Positions 37,944 to 53,202 of a stretch of DNA of 53,202 bases are shown one piece after another (position 1 is the stretch's first letter; each line of letters begins with the position of its first letter). Position numbers and translations under genes: made by a program. The stretch covers positions 1-53,202 of IMG/VR virus record IMGVR_UViG_3300009788_000121; one strand, 5' to 3'. The notes beneath the pieces were generated by a model. The model was not told the DNA's origin and ran no database searches. It was given only the letters and a program-made list of their open reading frames with translations. This stretch comes from a virus (Duplodnaviria; Caudoviricetes).

Positions 37944-38230
37944 ATGATGCACAAAAAGAAAGACTTATAAAATTGATAGAGGAATGTGGAGAAGTAATCC
38001 AGATTGCCTCTAAAACTTTACAGTACGGATTTAACGAAAGATATAAAGATAACTCAGATAATAGAGAACGTCTAGAAAAGGAAATAGCAGACGTTCTTTT
38101 TTGGGTGCTCATGTTAAATGAGTATGATGATATTAAATTAAATAATATAGATGATTATTTAGTATCAGAAGAAATATATAAAAGAAAAATGGAATATTCA
38201 CAATATCAACCTGAGAGTACGTGGAAATGA
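37940..38230 (+). CDS. MazG-like nucleotide pyrophosphohydrolase
   Basis: 'KLIEECGEVIQ...LEKEIADV'. Confidence 0.75.
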   Translation: MNDAQKERLIKLIEECGEVIQIASKTLQYGFNERYKDNSDNRERLEKEIADVLFWVLMLNEYDDIKLNNIDDYLVSEEIYKRKMEYSQYQPESTWK

Positions 38231-38760
38231 CTAATTCAGCTTTAGGAAAAGTATTTGATACTCTTTTAAATGCTATCAATTTATTCAGATTTTGGATAGT
38301 ATTAGACCCATTTGAACAGGGAATTATATTAAGACTAGGAGAATTTCATAGAGAAGTAGGTCCTGGTTTTCATTGGCGGAGAGCTTTTAATGTTGATAGA
38401 CTACTTTGGTTAAATGTACGTAAAAAAACCAGGGATAGTTGGGAAATGACTCTAACTTCTAAAGATAATAAACCTATAACTATGTCGTTTGATATGATTG
38501 TGGAAGTAGTTAATGCCAAAAAAGCATTATTAGCTGTAGATAGTTGGACTAGTGTAGCATATACTACTTCTAAAATTATGTTATCACAAATAGTAGCTAA
38601 TACCAATGCTAGTTGTATAAATGGTTCAGATTTTGCTAAAAAAGTACATAATACTATTAATCTTGTAGTACAAAATTATGGTGTTGAAGTAACTGAGTTC
38701 GGTTTAACCGATATGGCACAAAGTAAAGCTTATCGTGTATTCACGGGGGCAAGTAAATGA
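38227..38760 (+). CDS. SPFH/band-7 domain protein (second copy)
   Basis: 'FEQGIILRLGEFHREVGPGFHW', 'LTSKDNK', 'YGVEV'. Confidence 0.82.
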   Translation: MTNSALGKVFDTLLNAINLFRFWIVLDPFEQGIILRLGEFHREVGPGFHWRRAFNVDRLLWLNVRKKTRDSWEMTLTSKDNKPITMSFDMIVEVVNAKKALLAVDSWTSVAYTTSKIMLSQIVANTNASCINGSDFAKKVHNTINLVVQNYGVEVTEFGLTDMAQSKAYRVFTGASK

Positions 38761-39982: not shown

Positions 39983-40177
39983 ATGGACAAAGAAAAAGAA
40001 GATCAACCAAAGGATTATGTAGAATTTGCAGATTTTCTTAGGGACGAATATAGTTTTTTAACTTGGAATCAAAAGATTTTATATCGTTTGCAAAACCATG
40101 TAATCAAGGTAATACTATTTGTTTTTATGGCAGGAATTTTTACTGGAGCTTATTTAGATAAGTTTCAAATATTATAA
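39983..40177 (+). CDS. Small membrane protein
   Basis: 64 aa with a C-terminal TM helix. Confidence 0.55.
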   Translation: MDKEKEDQPKDYVEFADFLRDEYSFLTWNQKILYRLQNHVIKVILFVFMAGIFTGAYLDKFQIL

Positions 40178-40179
40178 GG

Positions 40180-41250
40180 TTTTGGCTCAGAGGTAACGTG
40201 CTGCAGCGGTTGTGCTTAACAACCTTAAAGTCGGGTTAAATTATATGGATAAACTAATATGATGGGAATTAAGGGCTGTTTGGAGTCCTGGCTTCGGCCG
40301 CAGATAATCTAGGGCGACCTAGAAAAAGGAAGAGATTATTCATATCTTCCACCAGGTGACTGGCCTATCTAAGCAAGCTAATGTGCCCTAACCCCTACGT
40401 GGGTTGCTTCAATCATTATAGGTTGGAGATAAGGTCTACACAGTAGAGGAGATAACTGGATTCGCTGCCCTTTCGGGGGATAACCAAGGTCTGGGAACTA
40501 ACAGGTTGTGCTGAGTGAAGCCTTTAACAAAGCTGTTACACTGTAAGGTAAATTAGTAATATAGCAAGTCCAAGAAAGTAATCGAGGGCGGCTATGTAAT
40601 ATCAACGAGAACGGTGCAATGCCTAGTAACGTGAAGTATAGCTGAGTATCTGACAAGAGAAAGGTATCGGACGGGTTGTATTTTGTAGCTCAAAAAGGTT
40701 GCGAATCAACAGAGGTAGCTCGTTTGTGGATAAATGGTTAATTTTAAGTGATTACGCAGGTTCGAATCCTGCCGGGATCGCCAAAATAACATTAGTGTGA
40801 AAGGAAACATAATTTATAGTCTCCGTCTAGTGTTATTCTGATGATCCCGTAGCTGAGTCAGGTTTAGCAATTTCATGTCTAGGAATAAACATCGTAAATG
40901 ATAACATAACTTAATGCAAAGACTACCTCGGTACGATAGTGAAAATAGCTTAAACCTGAACTCACTTAGGTGGGAATTCAGGGTCGGACAGCTCGCAAGG
41001 CTAGAAGGTTTGATGGAAAGTCGCACGTAAGGGATTAGCGTCCTTGTACAGCTCTGATTAAAGGGTTGGCGGTACACCGAACATTGAGTAGCAATCGTAT
41101 GACAGCTCGACACGCCGACGAGTCTAAACTAGGCAGCTATGTAATAGTAGTGGTAGGAACCACTGGATAAAGTCTTAAGATAGAGGGATACGCAACCTCA
41201 ATTGTACGGGAACTAAAGCTATTACGTAAAAGGTATAATCTCAGCCTTTT
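40180..41250 (+). ncRNA. GOLLD-like giant ornate RNA (5' boundary uncertain)
   Basis: ~1 kb without a plus-strand ORF, next to tRNAs. Ordered blocks match GOLLD sequences as I recall them: GAGTATC..GAAAGGTA..GTTGTATTTTGTAGCTCAAAAAGG..CAAC.GAGGTAGC; GCAAAAGACT..GGTA; CTCGCAAGG; CGTAAG..TTAGCG; CTGGATAA; 3' TAATCTCAGCC. Many GNRA-capped stems. Confidence 0.72.
40756..40886 (+). other. Circularly permuted tRNA-like domain inside the GOLLD-like RNA
   Basis: T-arm + CGGGATC-G-CCA (40756-40783) lies upstream of GATCCCG-TA-D-arm (40843-40868); the intervening segment is closed by an 11-bp stem. Confidence 0.75.
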
Positions 41251-41253
41251 AAG

Positions 41254-41442
41254 AATATTTTAATAAGTGGTGCAGATAAGCTAATAGCGCAGGGGAATAC
41301 TAATAGTTACGTAACCTGAATCTGAGAATGCTATCAATATGTAGTACGATGCGCTGGTAACTAAGTAATAATTGGAAAACATATATATAGTCAGTAGGTA
41401 GAGGTGCAAACTCTAAGTCTGACCACCACTTATTAAAATATT
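41254..41442 (+). ncRNA. ~150-nt tRNA-like RNA enclosed by a 19-bp perfect processing stem
   Basis: AATATTTTAATAAGTGGTG / CACCACTTATTAAAATATT; the insert ends TAGAG-GTGCAAA-CTCTA-AGTCTG-ACCA. Confidence 0.6.
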
Positions 41443-41447
41443 TTTAA

Positions 41448-41523
41448 CACCGGAAAGTCGGACTCATTAGACGCTTCTATTAAATGAAGAATTTCGCAGG
41501 AGGATTCCCTGCTCTGGTGGCCA
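41448..41523 (+). ncRNA. Degenerate tRNA-like RNA
   Basis: CACCGGA/TCTGGTG-G-CCA acceptor; GCAGG-AGGATTC-CCTGC T-like arm; non-canonical loops; 76 nt. Confidence 0.6.
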
Positions 41524-41530
41524 AACTATT

Positions 41531-41607
41531 GCCGAGGTAACTCAGAGAAAGAGTGCTTGGAGCTTGACTCCAGGAAGTCAGTGGTTGAAGTCCACTTCTC
41601 GGCTCCA
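41531..41607 (+). tRNA. Atypical tRNA with extended anticodon arm (TTG at apex)
   Basis: GCCGAGG/TCTCGGC-T-CCA; D-arm ACTC/GAGT; anticodon arm CTTGGAG-CTTGA-CTCCAGG; T-loop TTGAAGT. Confidence 0.6.
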
Positions 41608-42623: not shown

Positions 42624-42631
42624 AACATATA

Positions 42632-42706
42632 GCGGTGTAGAAAGTACTGGTGATAAAGCTGCCTTCCAAGCATGATAGGCGAGTTCGATTCTCGCACACC
42701 GCACCA
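42632..42706 (+). tRNA. tRNA-Gly(TCC), atypical D-arm
   Basis: GCGGTGT/ACACCGC, CTTCCAA loop, TTCGATT T-loop; A73. Confidence 0.75.
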
Positions 42707-43585: not shown

Positions 43586-43876
43586 ATGGACTATCTAATC
43601 ATGCTACAGATCTATGGAGTGATATCAGTAGCATTAGCAGGCACTAGCTATATTACATTATATAGGCCCGCCATAAAACTATTAGAAGAAATAGTAGAGG
43701 GCGATACTCCATATGGAGGATGGTTAGGTTTCACAATATGGAATTTAGCAGCTATAATAGCAGCTCCTTGGACGACCTACATATTATTACAAAACAACAA
43801 TGAAGAATTTATAGAACGGTTCGCAGTAGTACTAGCAGAAAGAATAATGAAAGAAGATGAAGGCGACGACGAATGA
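43586..43876 (+). CDS. Two-TM hypothetical protein
   Basis: Two hydrophobic helices and an acidic tail. Confidence 0.65.
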   Translation: MDYLIMLQIYGVISVALAGTSYITLYRPAIKLLEEIVEGDTPYGGWLGFTIWNLAAIIAAPWTTYILLQNNNEEFIERFAVVLAERIMKEDEGDDE

Positions 43877-44451
43877 TGAAAGATATAATGGTTGATCTAG
43901 AAACAATGGACAACGTGGCCTCAGCGGCCATTGTGTCAATTGGTGCAGTACAGTGTGATTTAATAACAGGGGAATTAGGGGCAGAATATTATAGAGTAAT
44001 TGATCTTAACCAACAAACAGAAATAGGCATGAGTGTAAATTCAGAGACAATCTATTGGTGGTTAGCTCAATCTGATCTGGCACGTGAAGCATTACTAATT
44101 AGAGGTAAAATAAGTCTTGACGCTATGTGTGTATCATTTACTAAATGGATACAAAGTATTGACCCATCGGGAGATAAATTAAGACTTTGGGGAAATGGGG
44201 CAAGTTTTGACAATGCCATATTAAGATATGCATTTAGGTGTTGTGGATATGATATGCGTAAATTAATAAGGTTTTGGAATGATAGAGACATGAGAACAAT
44301 AGTCGGTTTCTATCCACGACAGCTACAAGAAAAGTGGCGTAGAAGCAACTACCGTGCAGGTACTGCACATAATGCGTTAGATGACGCTATGTATCAAGTT
44401 AAGTACTGTAGCGCGATACTTAAAGATTTAGGAGTTAAGGAGTTATATTAA
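43873..44451 (+). CDS. 3'-5' exoribonuclease (DEDDh, Rv2179c/DUF5051-like)
   Basis: 'IMVDLETM', 'WGNGASFDNAIL', 'RDMRT', 'HNALDDA'. Confidence 0.9.
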   Translation: MMKDIMVDLETMDNVASAAIVSIGAVQCDLITGELGAEYYRVIDLNQQTEIGMSVNSETIYWWLAQSDLAREALLIRGKISLDAMCVSFTKWIQSIDPSGDKLRLWGNGASFDNAILRYAFRCCGYDMRKLIRFWNDRDMRTIVGFYPRQLQEKWRRSNYRAGTAHNALDDAMYQVKYCSAILKDLGVKELY

Positions 44452-47439: not shown

Positions 47440-47798
47440 CAAAGGACGAATGGGAAAATATATGTGATCGTTGTGGAAGATGCTGCGGTTTAAGTGTTCC
47501 TAGAGACGGTACAGGTATAGCTTGTCCATTATTAGATGTAGAAACTAATCTTTGTAGGAACTATGAAAATCGTTTTAAGATAGAATCTTGCGTAAGACTT
47601 AATCCAGAAAATATTATACCTATGTACAATAATAATGTATTACCTAGAACATGTGCATACGTTGAACATATAAATGGGGAAGAAATAACCCCGTGTGAAA
47701 AAGCAAGACTCATACCCTTCATGCTAGGTAATATAGAGGGGCAAAATAATTATATAGAAGAACGCAATCGTAGGTTACCGAAAAGAGATGAAAGTTAA
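47436..47798 (+). CDS. YcgN/YkgJ-like cysteine-cluster protein
   Basis: 'EWENICDRCGRCC', 'ACPLLD..T.LC..YENRF...SC', 'LPRTCAY'. Confidence 0.8.
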   Translation: MTKDEWENICDRCGRCCGLSVPRDGTGIACPLLDVETNLCRNYENRFKIESCVRLNPENIIPMYNNNVLPRTCAYVEHINGEEITPCEKARLIPFMLGNIEGQNNYIEERNRRLPKRDES

Positions 47799-48480
47799 AT
47801 TAGTTAGTTATACACAGCCTAGTCCTGAATTAATTGACGGAGTTAATACTTATGAGTTAGAAGATTTAATCTCATACTGTGCTAGAGTCAGCAATCCAGA
47901 TAATCAAAGTAATACAGTTACTAACCGCAGACTTTTAAAATATCTAATTAAGCATAAACATTGGTCACCATTTGAAATGGTGAATATTTGTCTGTCAATA
48001 GAAGTTACTAGAGACATTGCTAGACAAATATTAAGACATAGAAGTTTTAGTTTTCAAGAGTTTAGTCAACGATATGCAGATCCTACTTGTGAACTTAGTT
48101 TTCAAGAACGAGATGCAAGATTACAAGATGAAAGTAATCGTCAAAATTCTTTAGATTGCCAGGATTTAAACCTGGATGCTGAATGGAAATACAAACAACG
48201 TGTACTTATTAACGCAGCAGATGATACGTATAGATGGGCAAGATCACACAATATTGCTAAAGAGCAAGCCCGTGCAGTTTTGCCAGAGGGGTGTACTTTA
48301 TCAAGAATGTACATGAACGGTTCACTACGTAGTTGGATACATTATATACAATTACGTAGTGATGTAACAACACAATTAGAACATAGGGAAGTAGCTAATG
48401 CCTGTAAAGATGTAATAGCTGAAATTTTTCCCTTGATAAATGATGTACTGGAAAAAGCAGAGGAGAGTACCGACTCGTGA
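47788..48480 (+). CDS. thyX: FAD-dependent thymidylate synthase
   Basis: 'HWSPFEM', 'RQILRHRSFSFQEFSQRY', 'EQARAVLP', 'QLEHR'. Confidence 0.96.
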   Translation: MKVKLVSYTQPSPELIDGVNTYELEDLISYCARVSNPDNQSNTVTNRRLLKYLIKHKHWSPFEMVNICLSIEVTRDIARQILRHRSFSFQEFSQRYADPTCELSFQERDARLQDESNRQNSLDCQDLNLDAEWKYKQRVLINAADDTYRWARSHNIAKEQARAVLPEGCTLSRMYMNGSLRSWIHYIQLRSDVTTQLEHREVANACKDVIAEIFPLINDVLEKAEESTDS

Positions 48481-48651: not shown

Positions 48652-48744
48652 GGATAAGACGCGAATATTGGCATAAGTCGCCACGGTCTGTAAAACCGTA
48701 GTCTGCTAGACAGGATGTTGGTTCGATTCCAACCTTATCCACCA
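48652..48744 (+). tRNA. tRNA-Tyr(GTA)
   Basis: CTGTAAA loop, long variable arm, CCA. Confidence 0.85.
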
Positions 48745-48750
48745 AATTAT

Positions 48751-48826
48751 TCCAGAGTAGCTTTAATGGTAGAGCGTCCGGCTGTTAACCGGGTGGTTGG
48801 GAGTTCGAGTCTCTCCTCTGGAGCCA
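48751..48826 (+). tRNA. tRNA-Asn(GTT)
   Basis: TCC...GGA-G-CCA, CTGTTAA loop. Confidence 0.92.
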
Positions 48827-48918
48827 AATTGATCGTTAATGGTGCTGCGCGATTTAAAATAAGCTTCGTTACTACAGGATGGGGAGTAACCTGTATAATC
48901 ATCTGCCCCACTAATTTA

Positions 48919-48994
48919 GGCCGCATAGCTCAACTGGTAGAGCATTCCCCTGTCACGGGAAAGGTTAGGGATTCGAATTCCCTTGTGGTCGCCA
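48919..48994 (+). tRNA. tRNA-Asp(GTC)
   Basis: CTGTCAC loop, G73, CCA. Confidence 0.9.
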
Positions 48995-49059
48995 AACATC
49001 GCGACGTGCCGAATGCAACGGTACTGCTAGTGGGGATTCCACGACTAGCTTAATATTTT

Positions 49060-49136
49060 GGGTCTTTAGCTCAGCTTGGTAGAGCGCTGCCCTTACAAGA
49101 CAGATGTCGGCGGTTCGATCCCGTCAAGACCCACCA
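49060..49136 (+). tRNA. tRNA-Val(TAC)
   Basis: CTTACAA loop, CCA. Confidence 0.9.
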
Positions 49137-49214
49137 ATTTAAGGAATAGAAATGAGAGAAAAAGAAGTGCCTTAGTTACCTCTAATCGTTGTACGATGAT
49201 TAGGAGGTGATTAG

Positions 49215-49376
49215 ATGAATGAAGATCGCTTTAAAGGTTGGTCACATCGCCAGAAGTCAATGTGGCTTATGGTAGAGAGTTTTGCCAACCAAGAAATCCC
49301 GAAAACGCACGAGAATTGCATGAAAATTCTTAAAGTTGCAAGACCGGGTAAAACAAATCGAGACCGGGGTAAGTAA
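49215..49376 (+). CDS. 53-aa hypothetical protein
   Basis: TAGGAGGTGA RBS; MNEDRFKGWSHRQKSMWL...RDRGK. Confidence 0.6.
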   Translation: MNEDRFKGWSHRQKSMWLMVESFANQEIPKTHENCMKILKVARPGKTNRDRGK

Positions 49377-49388
49377 TTACTCCACCAA

Positions 49389-49464
49389 GCAGCATTAGAT
49401 TACAGGGTTAAATCACTGGGCCTTCACCCCGGAGAAATCGGTTCGATACCGTTATGCTGTACCA
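49389..49464 (+). tRNA. tRNA-Glu(TTC), atypical (C33)
   Basis: Cloverleaf; loop CCTTCAC; CCA. Confidence 0.75.
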
Positions 49465-49473
49465 AATAACAGT

Positions 49474-49551
49474 GAGGTTCGTAGCTTAAATGGATAAAGC
49501 CCTCGGATGTGACCCAAGAAGATGCCAGTTCGAATCTGGTCGTTCCTACCA
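49474..49551 (+). tRNA. tRNA-His(GTG), degenerate
   Basis: ATGTGAC loop and T-arm intact; two T-T mismatches in the acceptor stem. Confidence 0.6.
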
Positions 49552-49562
49552 CTGTAATAATT

Positions 49563-49639
49563 CGGAGCATAGCTCAGCCTGGTAGAGCGCCGCGTTTGGG
49601 ACGCGGAAGTCGAGAGTTCGAATCCCTCTGTTCCGACCA
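49563..49639 (+). tRNA. tRNA-Pro(TGG)
   Basis: CGG...CCG-A-CCA, TTTGGGA loop. Confidence 0.92.
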
Positions 49640-51978: not shown

Positions 51979-52302
51979 ATGATAAATAAGAAATTAGCAC
52001 TAAAGATTAAGGTAAAACATTTGGCTGAGGAAGCCCGAATTATTAGAAAAGAAGAGCAGAAGAATCGTGGAGACACTAGAGACTGGCTTTATCTACATCG
52101 TATTAATGGTGTACGTCCTGAGTGTCGTGCTTCGCACATCGCTTACGCGTTTACAAAGGGGACTGCGCTTGAAAAGATTGAGAGATATCCGAGCCAAATC
52201 CCGTTCACAGTATGGACGAGAGTAACAAAAATGGTTAAGCTATACTCCAATAAAAGTATGCAAGAATATAAAACATGGCTTGGTAGTTCAATGGCAGAAT
52301 AG
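51979..52302 (+). CDS. Basic hypothetical phage protein
   Basis: 'LKIKVKHLAEEARIIRKEE..LHR..VRPECRASHIAYAF'; 3' end overlaps a tRNA. Confidence 0.65.
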   Translation: MINKKLALKIKVKHLAEEARIIRKEEQKNRGDTRDWLYLHRINGVRPECRASHIAYAFTKGTALEKIERYPSQIPFTVWTRVTKMVKLYSNKSMQEYKTWLGSSMAE

Positions 52303-52351
52303 TGGGATTTCAACCTCAAAGATGCGGGTTCAAGTCCCGTCGGAGCCTCCA
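52277..52351 (+). tRNA. Cys-type tRNA body with TCA-containing anticodon loop
   Basis: GGC..GCC-T-CCA acceptor; anticodon arm TGGG-ATTTCAAC-CTCA. Confidence 0.6.
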
Positions 52352-53137: not shown

Positions 53138-53200
<63 letters not shown>

Positions 53201-53202
53201 CA

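What the first reader, a model, noticed from the sequence alone, without database searches (positions are those of the whole stretch)
40756..40886. Circularly permuted tRNA-like domain built into a GOLLD-like RNA (possible two-piece, aminoacylatable GOLLD)
Seen: inside the giant RNA, a canonical T-arm (GCAGG-TTCGAAT-CCTGC) and acceptor 3' strand CGGGATC-G-CCA (40756-40783) come first. The perfectly complementary 5' strand GATCCCG, followed by TA, a D-arm (GCTG-AGTCAGGTT-TAGC) and an anticodon-like hairpin (ATTTC-ATGTCTA-GGAAT), comes 59 nt later (40843-40886). The segment between them is closed by an 11-bp stem (AATAACATTAG/CTAGTGTTATT). Established: this layout matches permuted two-piece tmRNA genes, whose intervening segment is removed by RNase P and 3' trimming; GOLLD variable regions are known to carry ordinary tRNAs. 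Inference: this tRNA cannot be released as a free tRNA. Processing would instead cut the GOLLD into two base-paired pieces, one ending in a CCA that could be charged or bound by EF-Tu, so a tRNA mimic would be displayed on the GOLLD body. I know of no description of this.
Basis: partly seen in the sequence, partly recalled or inferred. Interest (0 to 1): 0.88.

Follow-up and report, generated by a model that had tools for sequence, protein, structure and literature searches.

The report
Permuted tRNA-like module inside phage GOLLD
A giant phage RNA of the GOLLD family carries, in the slot where its relatives hold an ordinary tRNA, a tRNA-shaped module whose two halves are encoded in swapped order, so it cannot be cut out as a free tRNA and probably works while tied to the big RNA.

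Summary
The window is a metagenomic phage contig. Rfam GOLLD matches 40668-41247 over the whole model (100.2 bits, E 2.6e-26, below the 150-bit cut-off). In its linker lie T-arm + acceptor 3' strand + GCCA (40755-40783), a 59-nt hairpin spacer, then acceptor 5' strand + D-arm + anticodon arm (40843-40886). ARAGORN calls a tRNA in 91 of 91 script-made rejoined forms.

Context is the main new point. Ordinary-order tRNAs occupy the same slot in 21 of 109 other GOLLD loci. In 13 Rfam-confirmed loci these embedded tRNAs are disarmed: 1 of 13 encodes CCA, against 78 of 83 free tRNAs.

An independent contig from another study spans the whole element, with both halves free of indels and the spacer cut from 59 to about 30 nt. 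This rules out misassembly.

- **Best reading (0.5):** a non-releasable, tethered tRNA mimic with a closed acceptor stem, as in YrlA Y RNAs.
a processed two-piece, chargeable GOLLD. This is open but unsupported.

No relative could be retrieved as sequence, so covariation is untested.

The parts
40250..40667 (+). Probable GOLLD 5' domain. The 5' boundary is uncertain.
   Evidence: This is a non-coding stretch after the ORF at 39983-40177. Three weak but collinear blastn hits link it to regions upstream of Rfam-confirmed GOLLDs. A promoter-like site lies at 40216-40244, but the scan count was not above chance. The boundary is an inference.
40668..41247 (+). GOLLD-like RNA, the part covered by Rfam RF02032
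   Evidence: 100.2 bits, E 2.6e-26, model positions 1-416 of 416, below the gathering score of 150. The match is 580 nt long, against 448-483 nt in 13 GOLLDs that pass the cut-off.
40668..40733 (+). Hairpin that precedes the linker (model positions 1-63). It is homologous to the hairpin that precedes the embedded tRNA in other GOLLDs.
   Evidence: cmscan alignment and MAFFT alignment with 15 GOLLD linkers.
40734..40754 (+). 5' connector from the GOLLD body into the module. It enters at the variable-loop position.
   Evidence: Sequence. Window 40731-40755, which covers this connector, shows no similarity to a tRNA beyond shuffles: 362 of 500 shuffles scored at least as well.
40755..40772 (+). 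C48 plus the T-arm (5-bp stem, loop TTCGAAT)
   Evidence: In relatives, 40757 is T instead of C, which keeps a G.U pair with 40771.
40773..40783 (+). Acceptor 3' strand (40773-40779), G73 (40780) and encoded CCA (40781-40783)
   Evidence: Window 40761-40783 occurs exactly in 24 IMG/VR stretches, where it is the 3' end of tRNA-Arg genes and tRNA-Arg fragments, and all 24 printed stretches match back to 40755 (29 nt). Exact Logan contigs from runs X2 and X3 cover 40755-40784, a 30-nt shared block. All 17 tRNA genes of the window also encode CCA.
40784..40842 (+). 59-nt spacer. It contains an 11-bp stem (40785-40795 with 40827-40837). The last five bases, CTGAT, form the leader, with T at -1 and A at -2.
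   Evidence: A relative in run X2 keeps only about 30 of these 59 nt (a 10-nt deletion is listed, the rest comes from depth arithmetic).
40843..40849 (+). Acceptor 5' strand, 7 of 7 Watson-Crick pairs with 40773-40779
40850..40869 (+). T8, A9, D-arm (stem 40852-40855 with 40865-40868, including one G.U pair; 9-nt loop containing GG) and A26
40870..40886 (+). Anticodon-like arm: 5-bp stem with one G.U pair and a 7-nt loop. T33 is present. ARAGORN reads GTC. Position 37 is T and position 32 is A, both non-canonical.
   Evidence: The arm appears in the MFE but not in the centroid. It resembles the anticodon arm of the tRNA-Arg(TCT)-like modules embedded in other GOLLDs.
40887..40915 (+). 3' connector from the module to the GOLLD 3' domain
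   Evidence: No similarity to a tRNA beyond shuffles: 262 of 500 scored at least as well.
40916..41247 (+). Conserved GOLLD 3' domain, ending in the family's 3' motif
   Evidence: cmscan alignment, model positions about 130-416. The motif search used its last 16 nt.

Best explanation
The linker slot of this phage GOLLD RNA holds a circularly permuted tRNA-like module. In about a fifth of the GOLLDs I sampled, the same slot holds an ordinary-order tRNA.

The module folds as a cloverleaf and probably as an L-shape. It keeps the tertiary-contact bases T8, A14, G15, G18-G19, C48 and T54-T55-C56; these position labels are my own numbering by eye of the sequence, and the L-shape is an inference. The RNA chain enters and leaves it at the variable-loop position. 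The acceptor stem is continued and capped by the spacer hairpin.

Most likely the module stays closed and covalently tied to GOLLD. On this reading it is a non-releasable tRNA mimic displayed on the linker. In solved GOLLD cages the linker points into the interior.

This reaches by topology what ordinary embedded GOLLD tRNAs reach by losing CCA and weakening the acceptor stem: a tRNA body that the tRNA maturation machinery does not set free.

- **Shown:** the anatomy, the slot, the disarmed state of ordinary embedded tRNAs, and the persistence of the layout in an independent contig.
- **Inferred:** the L-shaped fold, the closed state, and the origin from a tandem tRNA pair (as proposed for YrlA).
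- **Unknown:** what the displayed tRNA body binds.
For: **Anatomy and fold**
- establish the elements and the predicted structure.

**Same slot as ordinary embedded tRNAs**
- ARAGORN finds an ordinary-order tRNA ending 305-344 nt before the GOLLD 3' end in 21 of 109 other loci.
- In 13 of 13 loci checked with Rfam (13 of the 22 loci with a slot tRNA: 21 plus L143; they cover 13 of the 16 distinct slot sequences), GOLLD passes its cut-off. An Rfam tRNA hit (46-59 bits) starts 64-74 nt after the model start.
- MAFFT places the window's module in that slot.

**Embedded tRNAs are disarmed**
- 1 of 13 encodes CCA and 2 of 13 have 7 of 7 acceptor pairs (mean 5.62).
- Among free tRNAs of the same loci, 78 of 83 encode CCA and 73 of 83 have 7 of 7 pairs (mean 6.86).

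**The predicted precursor closes the acceptor end**
- G73.U(-1), C75-G(-3) and A76-U(-4) pair, followed by the 11-bp stem.
- Such leader/RCCA pairing inhibits bacterial RNase P (PMC9433436, abstract and one passage).

**Persistence in other datasets**
- One 567-nt contig of run X2, from another study, spans 40625-41225. It has 38 substitutions and 36 deleted letters.
- That contig has no indel in 40748-40786 or in 40841-40902.
- The one change listed inside the element (19 of that contig's 38 substitutions are listed in the output), 40757 C>T, keeps a pair.
- Contigs from two further studies (X3 and X17) keep hairpin, connector, T-arm, acceptor 3' strand and GCCA collinear over 40693-40786, with 9 differences each and no gaps.

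**Precedent**
- YrlA RNAs have the order T-arm, closed acceptor stem-loop, D-arm, and fold like tRNA (bioRxiv 10.1101/312249, passages).
Against: - Unlike ordinary embedded modules, this one keeps a perfect 7-bp acceptor stem, G73, an encoded CCA, and T(-1) with A(-2). These are the marks of an RNase P substrate.
- The alignments of the relatives run through the GCCA.
- The contig also carries the start of a permuted (two-piece) tmRNA gene at 53138-53202. Its host can therefore presumably mature permuted tRNA-like precursors.
- The spacer length is not kept: 59 nt here against about 30 nt in the relative. This fits a discarded spacer as well as a variable cap.
- The one YrlA with a 7-bp acceptor stem is cut by RNase P (bioRxiv 10.1101/312249, passage).
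- There are no covariation data. Only one relative is seen over the full length, and only as a table of differences, with 19 of its 38 substitutions not listed.
- The anticodon arm is absent from the centroid structure.
- The module is dispensable for GOLLD as a family: 88 of 109 sampled loci have no tRNA in the slot.
Confidence: 0.5

Rival explanations
1. Two-piece GOLLD. RNase P cuts before 40843 and 3' trimming stops at the CCA (40783). The spacer is lost. The 5' and 3' GOLLD domains then stay joined only by the 7-bp acceptor stem and the D/T-loop contacts, as in two-piece tmRNA. The free G73-CCA end may be charged or bound by CCA-reading or EF-Tu-like factors.
For: - The acceptor stem has 7 of 7 Watson-Crick pairs, with G73, an encoded CCA, and T(-1) and A(-2).
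- All 17 tRNA genes of the window encode CCA, and most have T at -1 (11 of 17). The module therefore looks like this phage's own tRNA ends.
- A tmRNA_permuted match lies at 53138-53202 on the same contig (52.2 bits, cut-off 47).
- The spacer is the part that varies in the X2 relative: 29 of its 36 deleted letters lie there.
- M. smegmatis YrlA, with a 7-bp acceptor stem, is cut by RNase P, nibbled and given CCA (bioRxiv 10.1101/312249, passage).
- RNase P unwinds extended acceptor pairing (PMC9433436, abstract).
Against: - There is no RNA-end evidence of any kind. Only contigs could be laid.
- The predicted precursor buries G73, C75 and A76 in a helix with the leader. That pairing lowers RNase P efficiency (PMC9433436, passage).
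- At family level, embedded GOLLD tRNAs lose CCA (1 of 13). GOLLD function therefore does not need a CCA end.
- For charging, the anticodon loop is non-canonical (T37, A32). The D-loop lacks the A after GG that the tRNA-Arg genes sharing this module's 3' end have.
Confidence: 0.25
2. Neutral relic. Two tandem copies of a phage tRNA once sat in the linker, and complementary deletions left one 3' half and one 5' half. The complementarity is inherited, not selected, and the pieces do nothing.
For: - Tandem tRNAs with short spacers are common in this contig and in related loci.
- Acceptor complementarity is expected by descent.
- The linker is variable, and most GOLLDs lack a tRNA there (88 of 109).
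- This array holds several decayed tRNA-like genes: 41448-41523, 41531-41604 and 42631-42706.
Against: - Each cloverleaf element is present exactly once. No remnant of the missing halves is detectable in the flanks (362 of 500 and 262 of 500 shuffles score as well).
- The tertiary-contact bases are kept in both halves.
- The X2 relative lost 29 nt of the spacer but has no indel in either half. The only change listed within the halves preserves a pair.
- A2-U71 is a better pair than the G.U found in the tRNA-Arg genes that share the 3' half.
Confidence: 0.18
3. Phage attachment site. The 29- to 30-nt block identical to the 3' end of tRNA-Arg genes would be an attP core used to integrate into a host tRNA-Arg gene.
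For: The 23-mer from the T-loop to CCA occurs in 24 IMG/VR stretches. In 9 of them only a 3' fragment of the tRNA is present, as at prophage ends.
Against: - No tyrosine-integrase or resolvase-type domain is found in the 53-kb window. The record is only about 55% complete.
- An attP does not explain the complementary 5' strand, D-arm and anticodon arm 59 nt downstream.
- Relatives carry T at 40757, which breaks the identity.
- The block lies inside a structured RNA gene.
Confidence: 0.03
4. Assembly artefact. A chimeric join occurred at the repeat shared with abundant bacterial tRNA-Arg genes.
For: In run X1 the exact Logan contig stops at 40784. The next exact contig starts at 41053. The depth over 40748-40778 is 252, against about 11 on the flanks.
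Against: A single contig from a different study (X2) crosses the whole element, from 40625 to 41225, with the same order of parts. The shared block is only 30 nt.
Confidence: 0.02

Closest known systems
GOLLD RNAs with an ordinary tRNA in the linker (J13/15)
   Same: - Same RNA family by model match.
- Same slot between the preceding hairpin and the 3' domain.
- Same phage and tRNA-array context.
- The anticodon arm resembles the embedded tRNA-Arg(TCT)-like modules.
- The literature notes tRNAs in the linker, which lies inside the cage (PMC12286853 and PMC12990946, passages).
   Different: - The order of the halves is swapped.
- The chain enters and exits at the variable loop, not at the acceptor end.
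- The acceptor stem is perfect and carries GCCA. Ordinary embedded modules lack CCA in 12 of 13 cases and have weak acceptor stems.
- The linker is about 182 nt, against about 85-90 nt.
- The GOLLD score falls below Rfam's cut-off.
YrlA bacterial Y RNAs (Rfam RF02553)
   Same: A tRNA-like module built into a larger non-coding RNA, with the order T-arm, closed acceptor stem-loop, D-arm. The authors describe it as resembling a circularly permuted tRNA and propose an origin from a dimeric tRNA. One member with a 7-bp acceptor stem is opened by RNase P (bioRxiv 10.1101/312249, passages).
   Different: - The YrlA model does not match 40756-40886.
- No Ro60/TROVE gene is found in the window.
- In YrlA the chain ends form the anticodon stem, which continues into the Ro60-binding helix. 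Here the anticodon arm is an intact hairpin and the break is in the variable loop.
- The host RNA here is GOLLD.
Two-piece (circularly permuted) tmRNA genes
   Same: The gene order is T-arm, acceptor 3' strand and CCA, then a spacer, then the acceptor 5' strand. Processing would give two base-paired pieces (PMC3985003, passage). One such gene starts at 53138 on this same contig.
   Different: - ARAGORN finds no tag reading frame or tmRNA here.
- tmRNA_permuted does not match here. RF00023 (tmRNA) gives only 12.6 bits at 40694-40773.
- The third acceptor pair is T-A, not G.U.
- A full D-arm and anticodon arm are present.
Permuted tRNA genes of red and green algae and of one archaeon
   Same: The 3' half is encoded upstream of the 5' half of one tRNA (PMC3978253 seen in a search listing only; description taken from passages of bioRxiv 10.1101/312249 and PMC3985003).
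   Different: Those genes are matured through a circular intermediate made by the splicing endonuclease and a ligase, and they yield a normal free tRNA. No such enzymes are reported in bacteria (bioRxiv 10.1101/312249, passage). Here the ends run into a roughly 1-kb RNA.

Membership tests
GOLLD (Rfam RF02032) | Match to the family covariance model at or above the curated cut-off | tested here: inconclusive
   100.2 bits against a cut-off of 150, but E 2.6e-26 and the full model 1-416 is matched. The shortfall coincides with about 115 extra nt in the linker. 13 of 13 comparison loci score 157-230 bits.
GOLLD (Rfam RF02032) | Conserved 3' domain with its pseudoknot and 3'-terminal motif | tested here: met
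   The cmscan alignment shows the helices, the bracketed pseudoknot and the terminal motif, with high posterior probabilities.
GOLLD (Rfam RF02032) | Large, variable 5' domain upstream | tested here: inconclusive
   About 490 nt of non-coding sequence lies upstream. Only three weak collinear blastn hits link it to other GOLLD 5' regions.
GOLLD (Rfam RF02032) | Phage or prophage context near tRNA arrays | tested here: met
   The window is a virus record. ARAGORN finds 16 tRNAs, and 16 Rfam tRNA hits pass the cut-off downstream.
GOLLD (Rfam RF02032) | Homo-oligomeric cage | not testable with these tools
   Known from cryo-EM of other members (PMC12286853, passages).
Canonical tRNA gene | Cloverleaf encoded in the order acceptor 5' strand, D, anticodon, T, acceptor 3' strand | tested here: not met
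   Neither ARAGORN nor Rfam tRNA calls a tRNA at 40734-40915 on the native sequence. The order is permuted.
Canonical tRNA gene | All four arms and the conserved tertiary bases | tested here: met
   ARAGORN accepts 91 of 91 rejoined forms. T8, A14, G15, GG in the D-loop, C48 and the T-loop TTCGAAT are all present.
Canonical tRNA gene | Canonical anticodon loop (T33 and a purine at 37) | tested here: not met
   T33 is present, but position 37 is T and position 32 is A. The rule itself is recalled from general knowledge.
Canonical tRNA gene | Aminoacylation and use in translation | not testable with these tools
   This needs biochemistry.
Two-piece tmRNA (Rfam RF04321) | Permuted order with a spacer between the CCA and the acceptor 5' strand | tested here: met
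Two-piece tmRNA (Rfam RF04321) | Match to a tmRNA model, with tag reading frame and pseudoknots | tested here: not met
   tmRNA_permuted does not match here. RF00023 gives 12.6 bits, E 0.039, at 40694-40773. ARAGORN reports no tmRNA.
YrlA Y RNA (Rfam RF02553) | T-arm, closed acceptor stem-loop, D-arm in that order | tested here: met
YrlA Y RNA (Rfam RF02553) | Match to the family model | tested here: not met
   There is no hit at 40756-40886 at E <= 1. The four weak hits (15-26 bits, cut-off 69) lie at tandem tRNA junctions between 48693 and 49619.
YrlA Y RNA (Rfam RF02553) | Ro60/Rsr (TROVE) partner gene nearby | tested here: not met
   No TROVE match in the window. The record is about 55% complete.
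tRNA-type attP site | Block identical to the 3' end of a host tRNA gene | tested here: met
   Window 40755-40783 (29 nt) equals the 3' end of tRNA-Arg genes and fragments in all 24 printed IMG/VR stretches. Exact Logan contigs from runs X2 and X3 cover 40755-40784 (30 nt).
tRNA-type attP site | Integrase encoded by the element | tested here: not met
   PF00589 and PF00239 give no match in the window. The genome is incomplete.

The most novel reading that the evidence does not exclude
The spacer is excised by the same host machinery that matures the phage's own permuted tmRNA. This would make a two-piece GOLLD whose halves are held together only by a tRNA-like domain, with a free G73-CCA end inside the RNA cage. 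That end could be charged (ARAGORN reads the anticodon as GTC, Asp; the acceptor and T-arm are of tRNA-Arg type), or bound by EF-Tu, the CCA-adding enzyme, or tRNA-targeting defence nucleases. A giant phage RNA cage would then display up to 14 tRNA ends as bait or cargo.
Probability: 0.2. Interest if true: 0.85.

Novelty: new variant of a known kind. Interest (0 to 1): 0.6.

Why it matters
GOLLD forms a 14-mer RNA cage of unknown function, and the role of the tRNAs in its linker is an open question (PMC12286853 and PMC12990946, passages).

A natural variant whose tRNA cannot be released, set beside the finding that ordinary embedded tRNAs lack CCA and have weak acceptor stems, points to one idea. 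GOLLD may use a tethered tRNA-shaped body rather than storing a tRNA for later release.

That idea can be tested directly. Map the RNA ends, test RNase P cleavage, and ask what binds the displayed module.

It would also be a second bacterial-world case, after YrlA, of a permuted tRNA mimic built into a larger RNA. It apparently arose independently, in a phage that also carries a permuted tmRNA gene.

Tried and rejected
**Relatives as sequence: none could be fetched**
- blastn of 40600-41300 against the phage collection gave no match.
- IMG/VR scans gave the following:
  - The 23-mer hit 24 stretches, all tRNA-Arg genes or fragments and none GOLLD-like on inspection.
  - A loose permuted pattern hit 5 identical loci that are two different tandem tRNAs.
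  - The hairpin motif hit 0 stretches.
  - The motif at the start of the 3' domain hit 18 stretches. Four are GOLLDs, all in ordinary order, and 14 are chance matches.
  - The motif from the acceptor 5' strand and D-arm hit 7 stretches, all chance matches in non-GOLLD sequence that looks coding.
- The JGI metagenome scan gave 1 chance hit, L141, with no GOLLD.
- The GTDB scan gave 1 chance hit, L142, and its genome G001 has no GOLLD.
- A neighbouring SPFH protein gave one 30%-identical locus, L135, without GOLLD.

Covariation therefore could not be tested.

**Remnants of duplicated halves**
- The flanks 40731-40755 and 40887-40915 are no more tRNA-like than shuffles.

**Promoter-like site inside the spacer (40786-40813)**
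- The scan found 7 sites, against 4.9 +/- 2.3 expected by chance, so I do not use it.

**RNA run X17 (contigs only)**
- Contigs of a relative cover about 40483-40790 and about 40921-41246.
- Nothing covers 40790-40921.
- A gap in contig cover shows nothing about RNA ends or expression. The first contig also runs about 7 nt past the CCA.

**X1 record 2**
- It shows a joint from 40769 to 40906 that skips 136 nt. Only 27 letters lie on the short side, and the likeness is under 95%. I treat it as unreliable.

**Other points**
- The attP and YrlA/Ro60 readings were tested and set aside.
- Weinberg 2009 and Morgado 2020 are not held, and supplements are closed. Their alignments may already show embedded tRNAs lacking CCA, or even a permuted case, so my 'not in print' rests only on searches.
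- Structure prediction, complex prediction and the large protein searches were not used, because this is an RNA question.
Full report
**What is there**

The window is one virus record of 53,202 bases, estimated about 55% complete. From about 41.5 kb onward it is a tRNA array. ARAGORN finds 16 tRNAs. Rfam gives 16 tRNA hits above the cut-off and the start of a permuted tmRNA at 53138-53202, cut off by the window end.

At the permissive threshold, Rfam GOLLD (RF02032) matches 40668-41247 on the plus strand over the whole model (positions 1-416). The score is 100.2 bits with E 2.6e-26. This is below the 150-bit gathering score (repeated).

The alignment shows three parts. There is a 5' hairpin at 40668-40733 and a conserved 3' domain from about 40916. 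Between them is the model's uninformative linker of about 70 nt, which here is about 182 nt long.

- T-arm: 40756-40772.
- Acceptor 3' strand: 40773-40779.
- G73 and CCA: 40780-40783.
- Spacer: 59 nt, with an 11-bp stem (40785-40795 with 40827-40837, one G.U pair).
- Acceptor 5' strand: 40843-40849, 7 of 7 Watson-Crick pairs.
- T8 and A9, then D-arm 40852-40868, A26, and anticodon arm 40870-40886.
- C48 precedes the T-arm at 40755.

The native order is invisible to ARAGORN and to the Rfam tRNA model. A script rejoined the two pieces by coordinates over 91 combinations of variable-loop length. ARAGORN called a tRNA in 91 of 91: 85 Asp(GTC), and 6 Glu(TTC) in the shortest joins.

RNAfold of 40734-40905 gives the T-arm, acceptor stem, spacer stem and D-stem in both the MFE and the centroid. 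The anticodon arm appears in the MFE only. The MFE is -42.5 kcal/mol, z = -2.82, and 1 of 200 shuffles folds as well.

As a control for chance, I ran the same test on 109 other IMG/VR loci that carry the GOLLD 3' motif. The test asks for a T-arm, then a 7-of-7 complement within 400 nt, then ARAGORN acceptance. It passed in 0 of 109 and in the window.

**The slot**

In 21 of those 109 loci, ARAGORN finds an ordinary-order tRNA whose 3' end lies 305-344 nt before the GOLLD 3' end. These 21 comprise 15 distinct sequences. One more case, L143, came from a later scan.

I checked 13 of these 22 loci with Rfam; they cover 13 of the 16 distinct slot sequences. In 13 of 13, GOLLD passes its cut-off (157-230 bits, 448-483 nt). 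An Rfam tRNA hit of 46-59 bits begins 64-74 nt after the model start, directly after the hairpin.

MAFFT aligns the window's hairpin, T-arm and 3'-domain start with theirs, and shows the window's extra material between. The window's module therefore sits where relatives keep a normal tRNA.

Of the 21 slot tRNAs, 9 are called Arg(TCT). Their anticodon arm resembles the window's.

The literature already notes tRNAs in the GOLLD linker, which lies inside the 14-mer cage. One review suggests an 'inhibited storage' of the embedded tRNA (passages of PMC12286853 and PMC12990946). A pseudo-tRNA inside a mycobacterial GOLLD gave no detectable expression of its own (PMC6582537, passages).

**Embedded tRNAs are disarmed**

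I compared embedded and free tRNAs in the 13 Rfam-checked loci.

| tRNAs | Encode CCA | 7 of 7 acceptor pairs | Mean pairs |
|---|---|---|---|
| Embedded (13) | 1 of 13 | 2 of 13 | 5.62 |
| Free, same loci (83) | 78 of 83 | 73 of 83 | 6.86 |

The family thus seems to keep a tRNA body while removing the features that let it be cut out and charged. The window's module reaches non-release differently, by topology. It still has a perfect acceptor stem and GCCA, like the 17 tRNA genes of its own contig, all of which encode CCA.

**Origin**

Window 40755-40783 (29 nt) is identical to the 3' end of tRNA-Arg genes and gene fragments in all 24 printed IMG/VR stretches. Exact Logan contigs from runs X2 and X3 cover 40755-40784, a 30-nt shared block.

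The 5' half is similar to that tRNA type but not identical to it. Position 2 is A instead of G, which turns a G.U pair into A-U.

The flanks of the module show no detectable remnant of the 'missing' halves. A tandem tRNA pair followed by complementary loss is the natural route, as proposed for YrlA. This is an inference.

**Independent occurrence**

Only Logan contigs could be laid.

- *Run X2 (another study).* One 567-nt contig spans 40625-41225, with 38 substitutions and 36 deleted letters.
  - The depth arithmetic reproduces the bin values. It places 29 of the deleted letters in the spacer, which shrinks from 59 to about 30 nt. One 10-nt deletion at 40787 is listed.
  - No deleted letter falls in 40748-40786 or in 40841-40902.
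  - The only substitution listed inside the halves is 40757 C>T, which keeps a G.U pair.
  - 19 of this contig's 38 substitutions are not listed in the output. Conservation of the 5' half is therefore known only for indels.
- *Runs X3 and X17 (two further studies).* Contigs keep 40693-40786 collinear, with 9 differences each and no gaps. The T-arm thus follows the hairpin without a preceding 5' half there too.
- *Run X1.* The exact contigs stop at 40784 and resume at 41053.

The X2 contig rules out a chimeric join.

**Mechanism**

I favour a closed, tethered tRNA mimic (0.5).

- The predicted precursor continues the acceptor stem into the spacer. G73.U(-1), C75-G(-3) and A76-U(-4) pair, followed by the 11-bp stem. 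Such pairing inhibits bacterial RNase P (PMC9433436, abstract and one passage).
- The family-level trend is away from a usable acceptor end.
- YrlA Y RNAs give a solved precedent for the order T-arm, closed acceptor stem-loop, D-arm, folding like tRNA (bioRxiv 10.1101/312249, passages).

The two-piece reading (0.25) remains open.

- The acceptor stem has 7 bp, and T(-1), A(-2) and GCCA are present.
- The spacer is the variable part.
- The contig carries a permuted tmRNA gene.
- The one YrlA with a 7-bp acceptor stem is cut by RNase P and receives CCA (same preprint).

The remaining rivals are less likely.

- A neutral relic gets 0.18. It is disfavoured because each element is kept exactly once and the halves are free of indels.
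- An attP core gets 0.03. There is no integrase in the window, and it would not explain the 5' half.
- An assembly artefact gets 0.02.

**Comparison with known kinds**

The module is not a member of tmRNA and not a member of YrlA. No TROVE gene is present. It is a GOLLD by model alignment, although below the cut-off.

It works like a YrlA-type permuted tRNA mimic, placed in the GOLLD tRNA slot. My full-text searches found no description of a permuted tRNA in GOLLD or in a phage. Weinberg 2009 and Morgado 2020 could not be read, and supplements are closed.

**Verdict**

This is a real feature and a new variant of a known kind. It is worth an RNA-end mapping and RNase P experiment. The chargeable two-piece idea is possible but unsupported.

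Noticed in passing
window 53138-53202 (+): Start of a circularly permuted (two-piece) tmRNA gene. It has a T-arm, acceptor 3' strand and CCA, and is cut off by the window end. Rfam tmRNA_permuted scores 52.2 bits (cut-off 47), matching model positions 1-65 of 213. The phage therefore encodes a two-piece tmRNA.
   Followed up: partly
13 GOLLD loci (L028, L032, L048, L057, L063, L076, L079, L081, L083, L089, L092, L096, L143): tRNAs embedded in GOLLD linkers lack CCA (1 of 13 encodes it) and have weak acceptor stems (mean 5.62 pairs). Free tRNAs of the same loci encode CCA in 78 of 83 cases, with a mean of 6.86 pairs.

ARAGORN anticodon calls for the 21 slot tRNAs are skewed: 9 Arg(TCT), 3 Lys(TTT), 2 Gln(TTG) and 1 Glu(TTC). 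These 21 are 15 distinct sequences.
   Followed up: yes
window 41249-41447 (+), directly after the GOLLD 3' end: A 199-nt element closed by a stem of about 29 bp. The MFE is -55.4 kcal/mol, z = -4.43, and 0 of 200 shuffles fold as well.

In run X1, a loose end before 41249 reads as the reverse complement of 41448-41477. This could be an inverted form of the segment or a fold-back artefact at the long inverted repeat.
   Followed up: partly
window 41448-41523 (+): A tRNA-like cloverleaf that both ARAGORN and Rfam miss. It has a 7-bp acceptor stem, a 3-bp D stem, a 4-bp anticodon stem with an 8-nt loop, and GCCA. Its T-arm has the same stem as the permuted module but a non-canonical loop. The MFE and the centroid are identical.
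   Followed up: partly
window 41531-41604 (+): A tRNA found by Rfam only at the permissive threshold (38.6 bits). The model's 7 anticodon-loop positions are matched by 9 nt in the window. ARAGORN does not call it.
   Followed up: no
window 42631-42706 (+): A degenerate tRNA-like gene with a canonical T-arm, a 7-bp acceptor stem and ACCA. It has no convincing D or anticodon arm in the fold, and both tools miss it.
   Followed up: partly
window 52277-52351 (+): ARAGORN reports a tRNA of undetermined identity with a two-base 'anticodon' (tc). Rfam tRNA scores it at 44.1 bits.
   Followed up: no
window 43873-44451 (+): An Rv2179c-like 3'-5' exoribonuclease gene inside the tRNA array (Pfam E 3.2e-52). 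A phage-encoded RNA 3'-end trimmer could bear on tRNA or GOLLD 3' maturation. Also present are ThyX at 47788-48480 and an SPFH-domain protein at 38221-38760.
   Followed up: no
IMG/VR loci L002, L004, L005, L008, L010, L014, L018, L019, L022: In these 9 of the 24 stretches that hold the 23-mer, only a 3' fragment of tRNA-Arg is present. This looks like attachment-site remnants of integrated elements.
   Followed up: partly
window 48693-49619 (+): The YrlA model gives four weak hits (15-26 bits, cut-off 69) across junctions of neighbouring tRNAs in the array. This illustrates how a tandem tRNA pair already resembles a permuted tRNA mimic.
   Followed up: no
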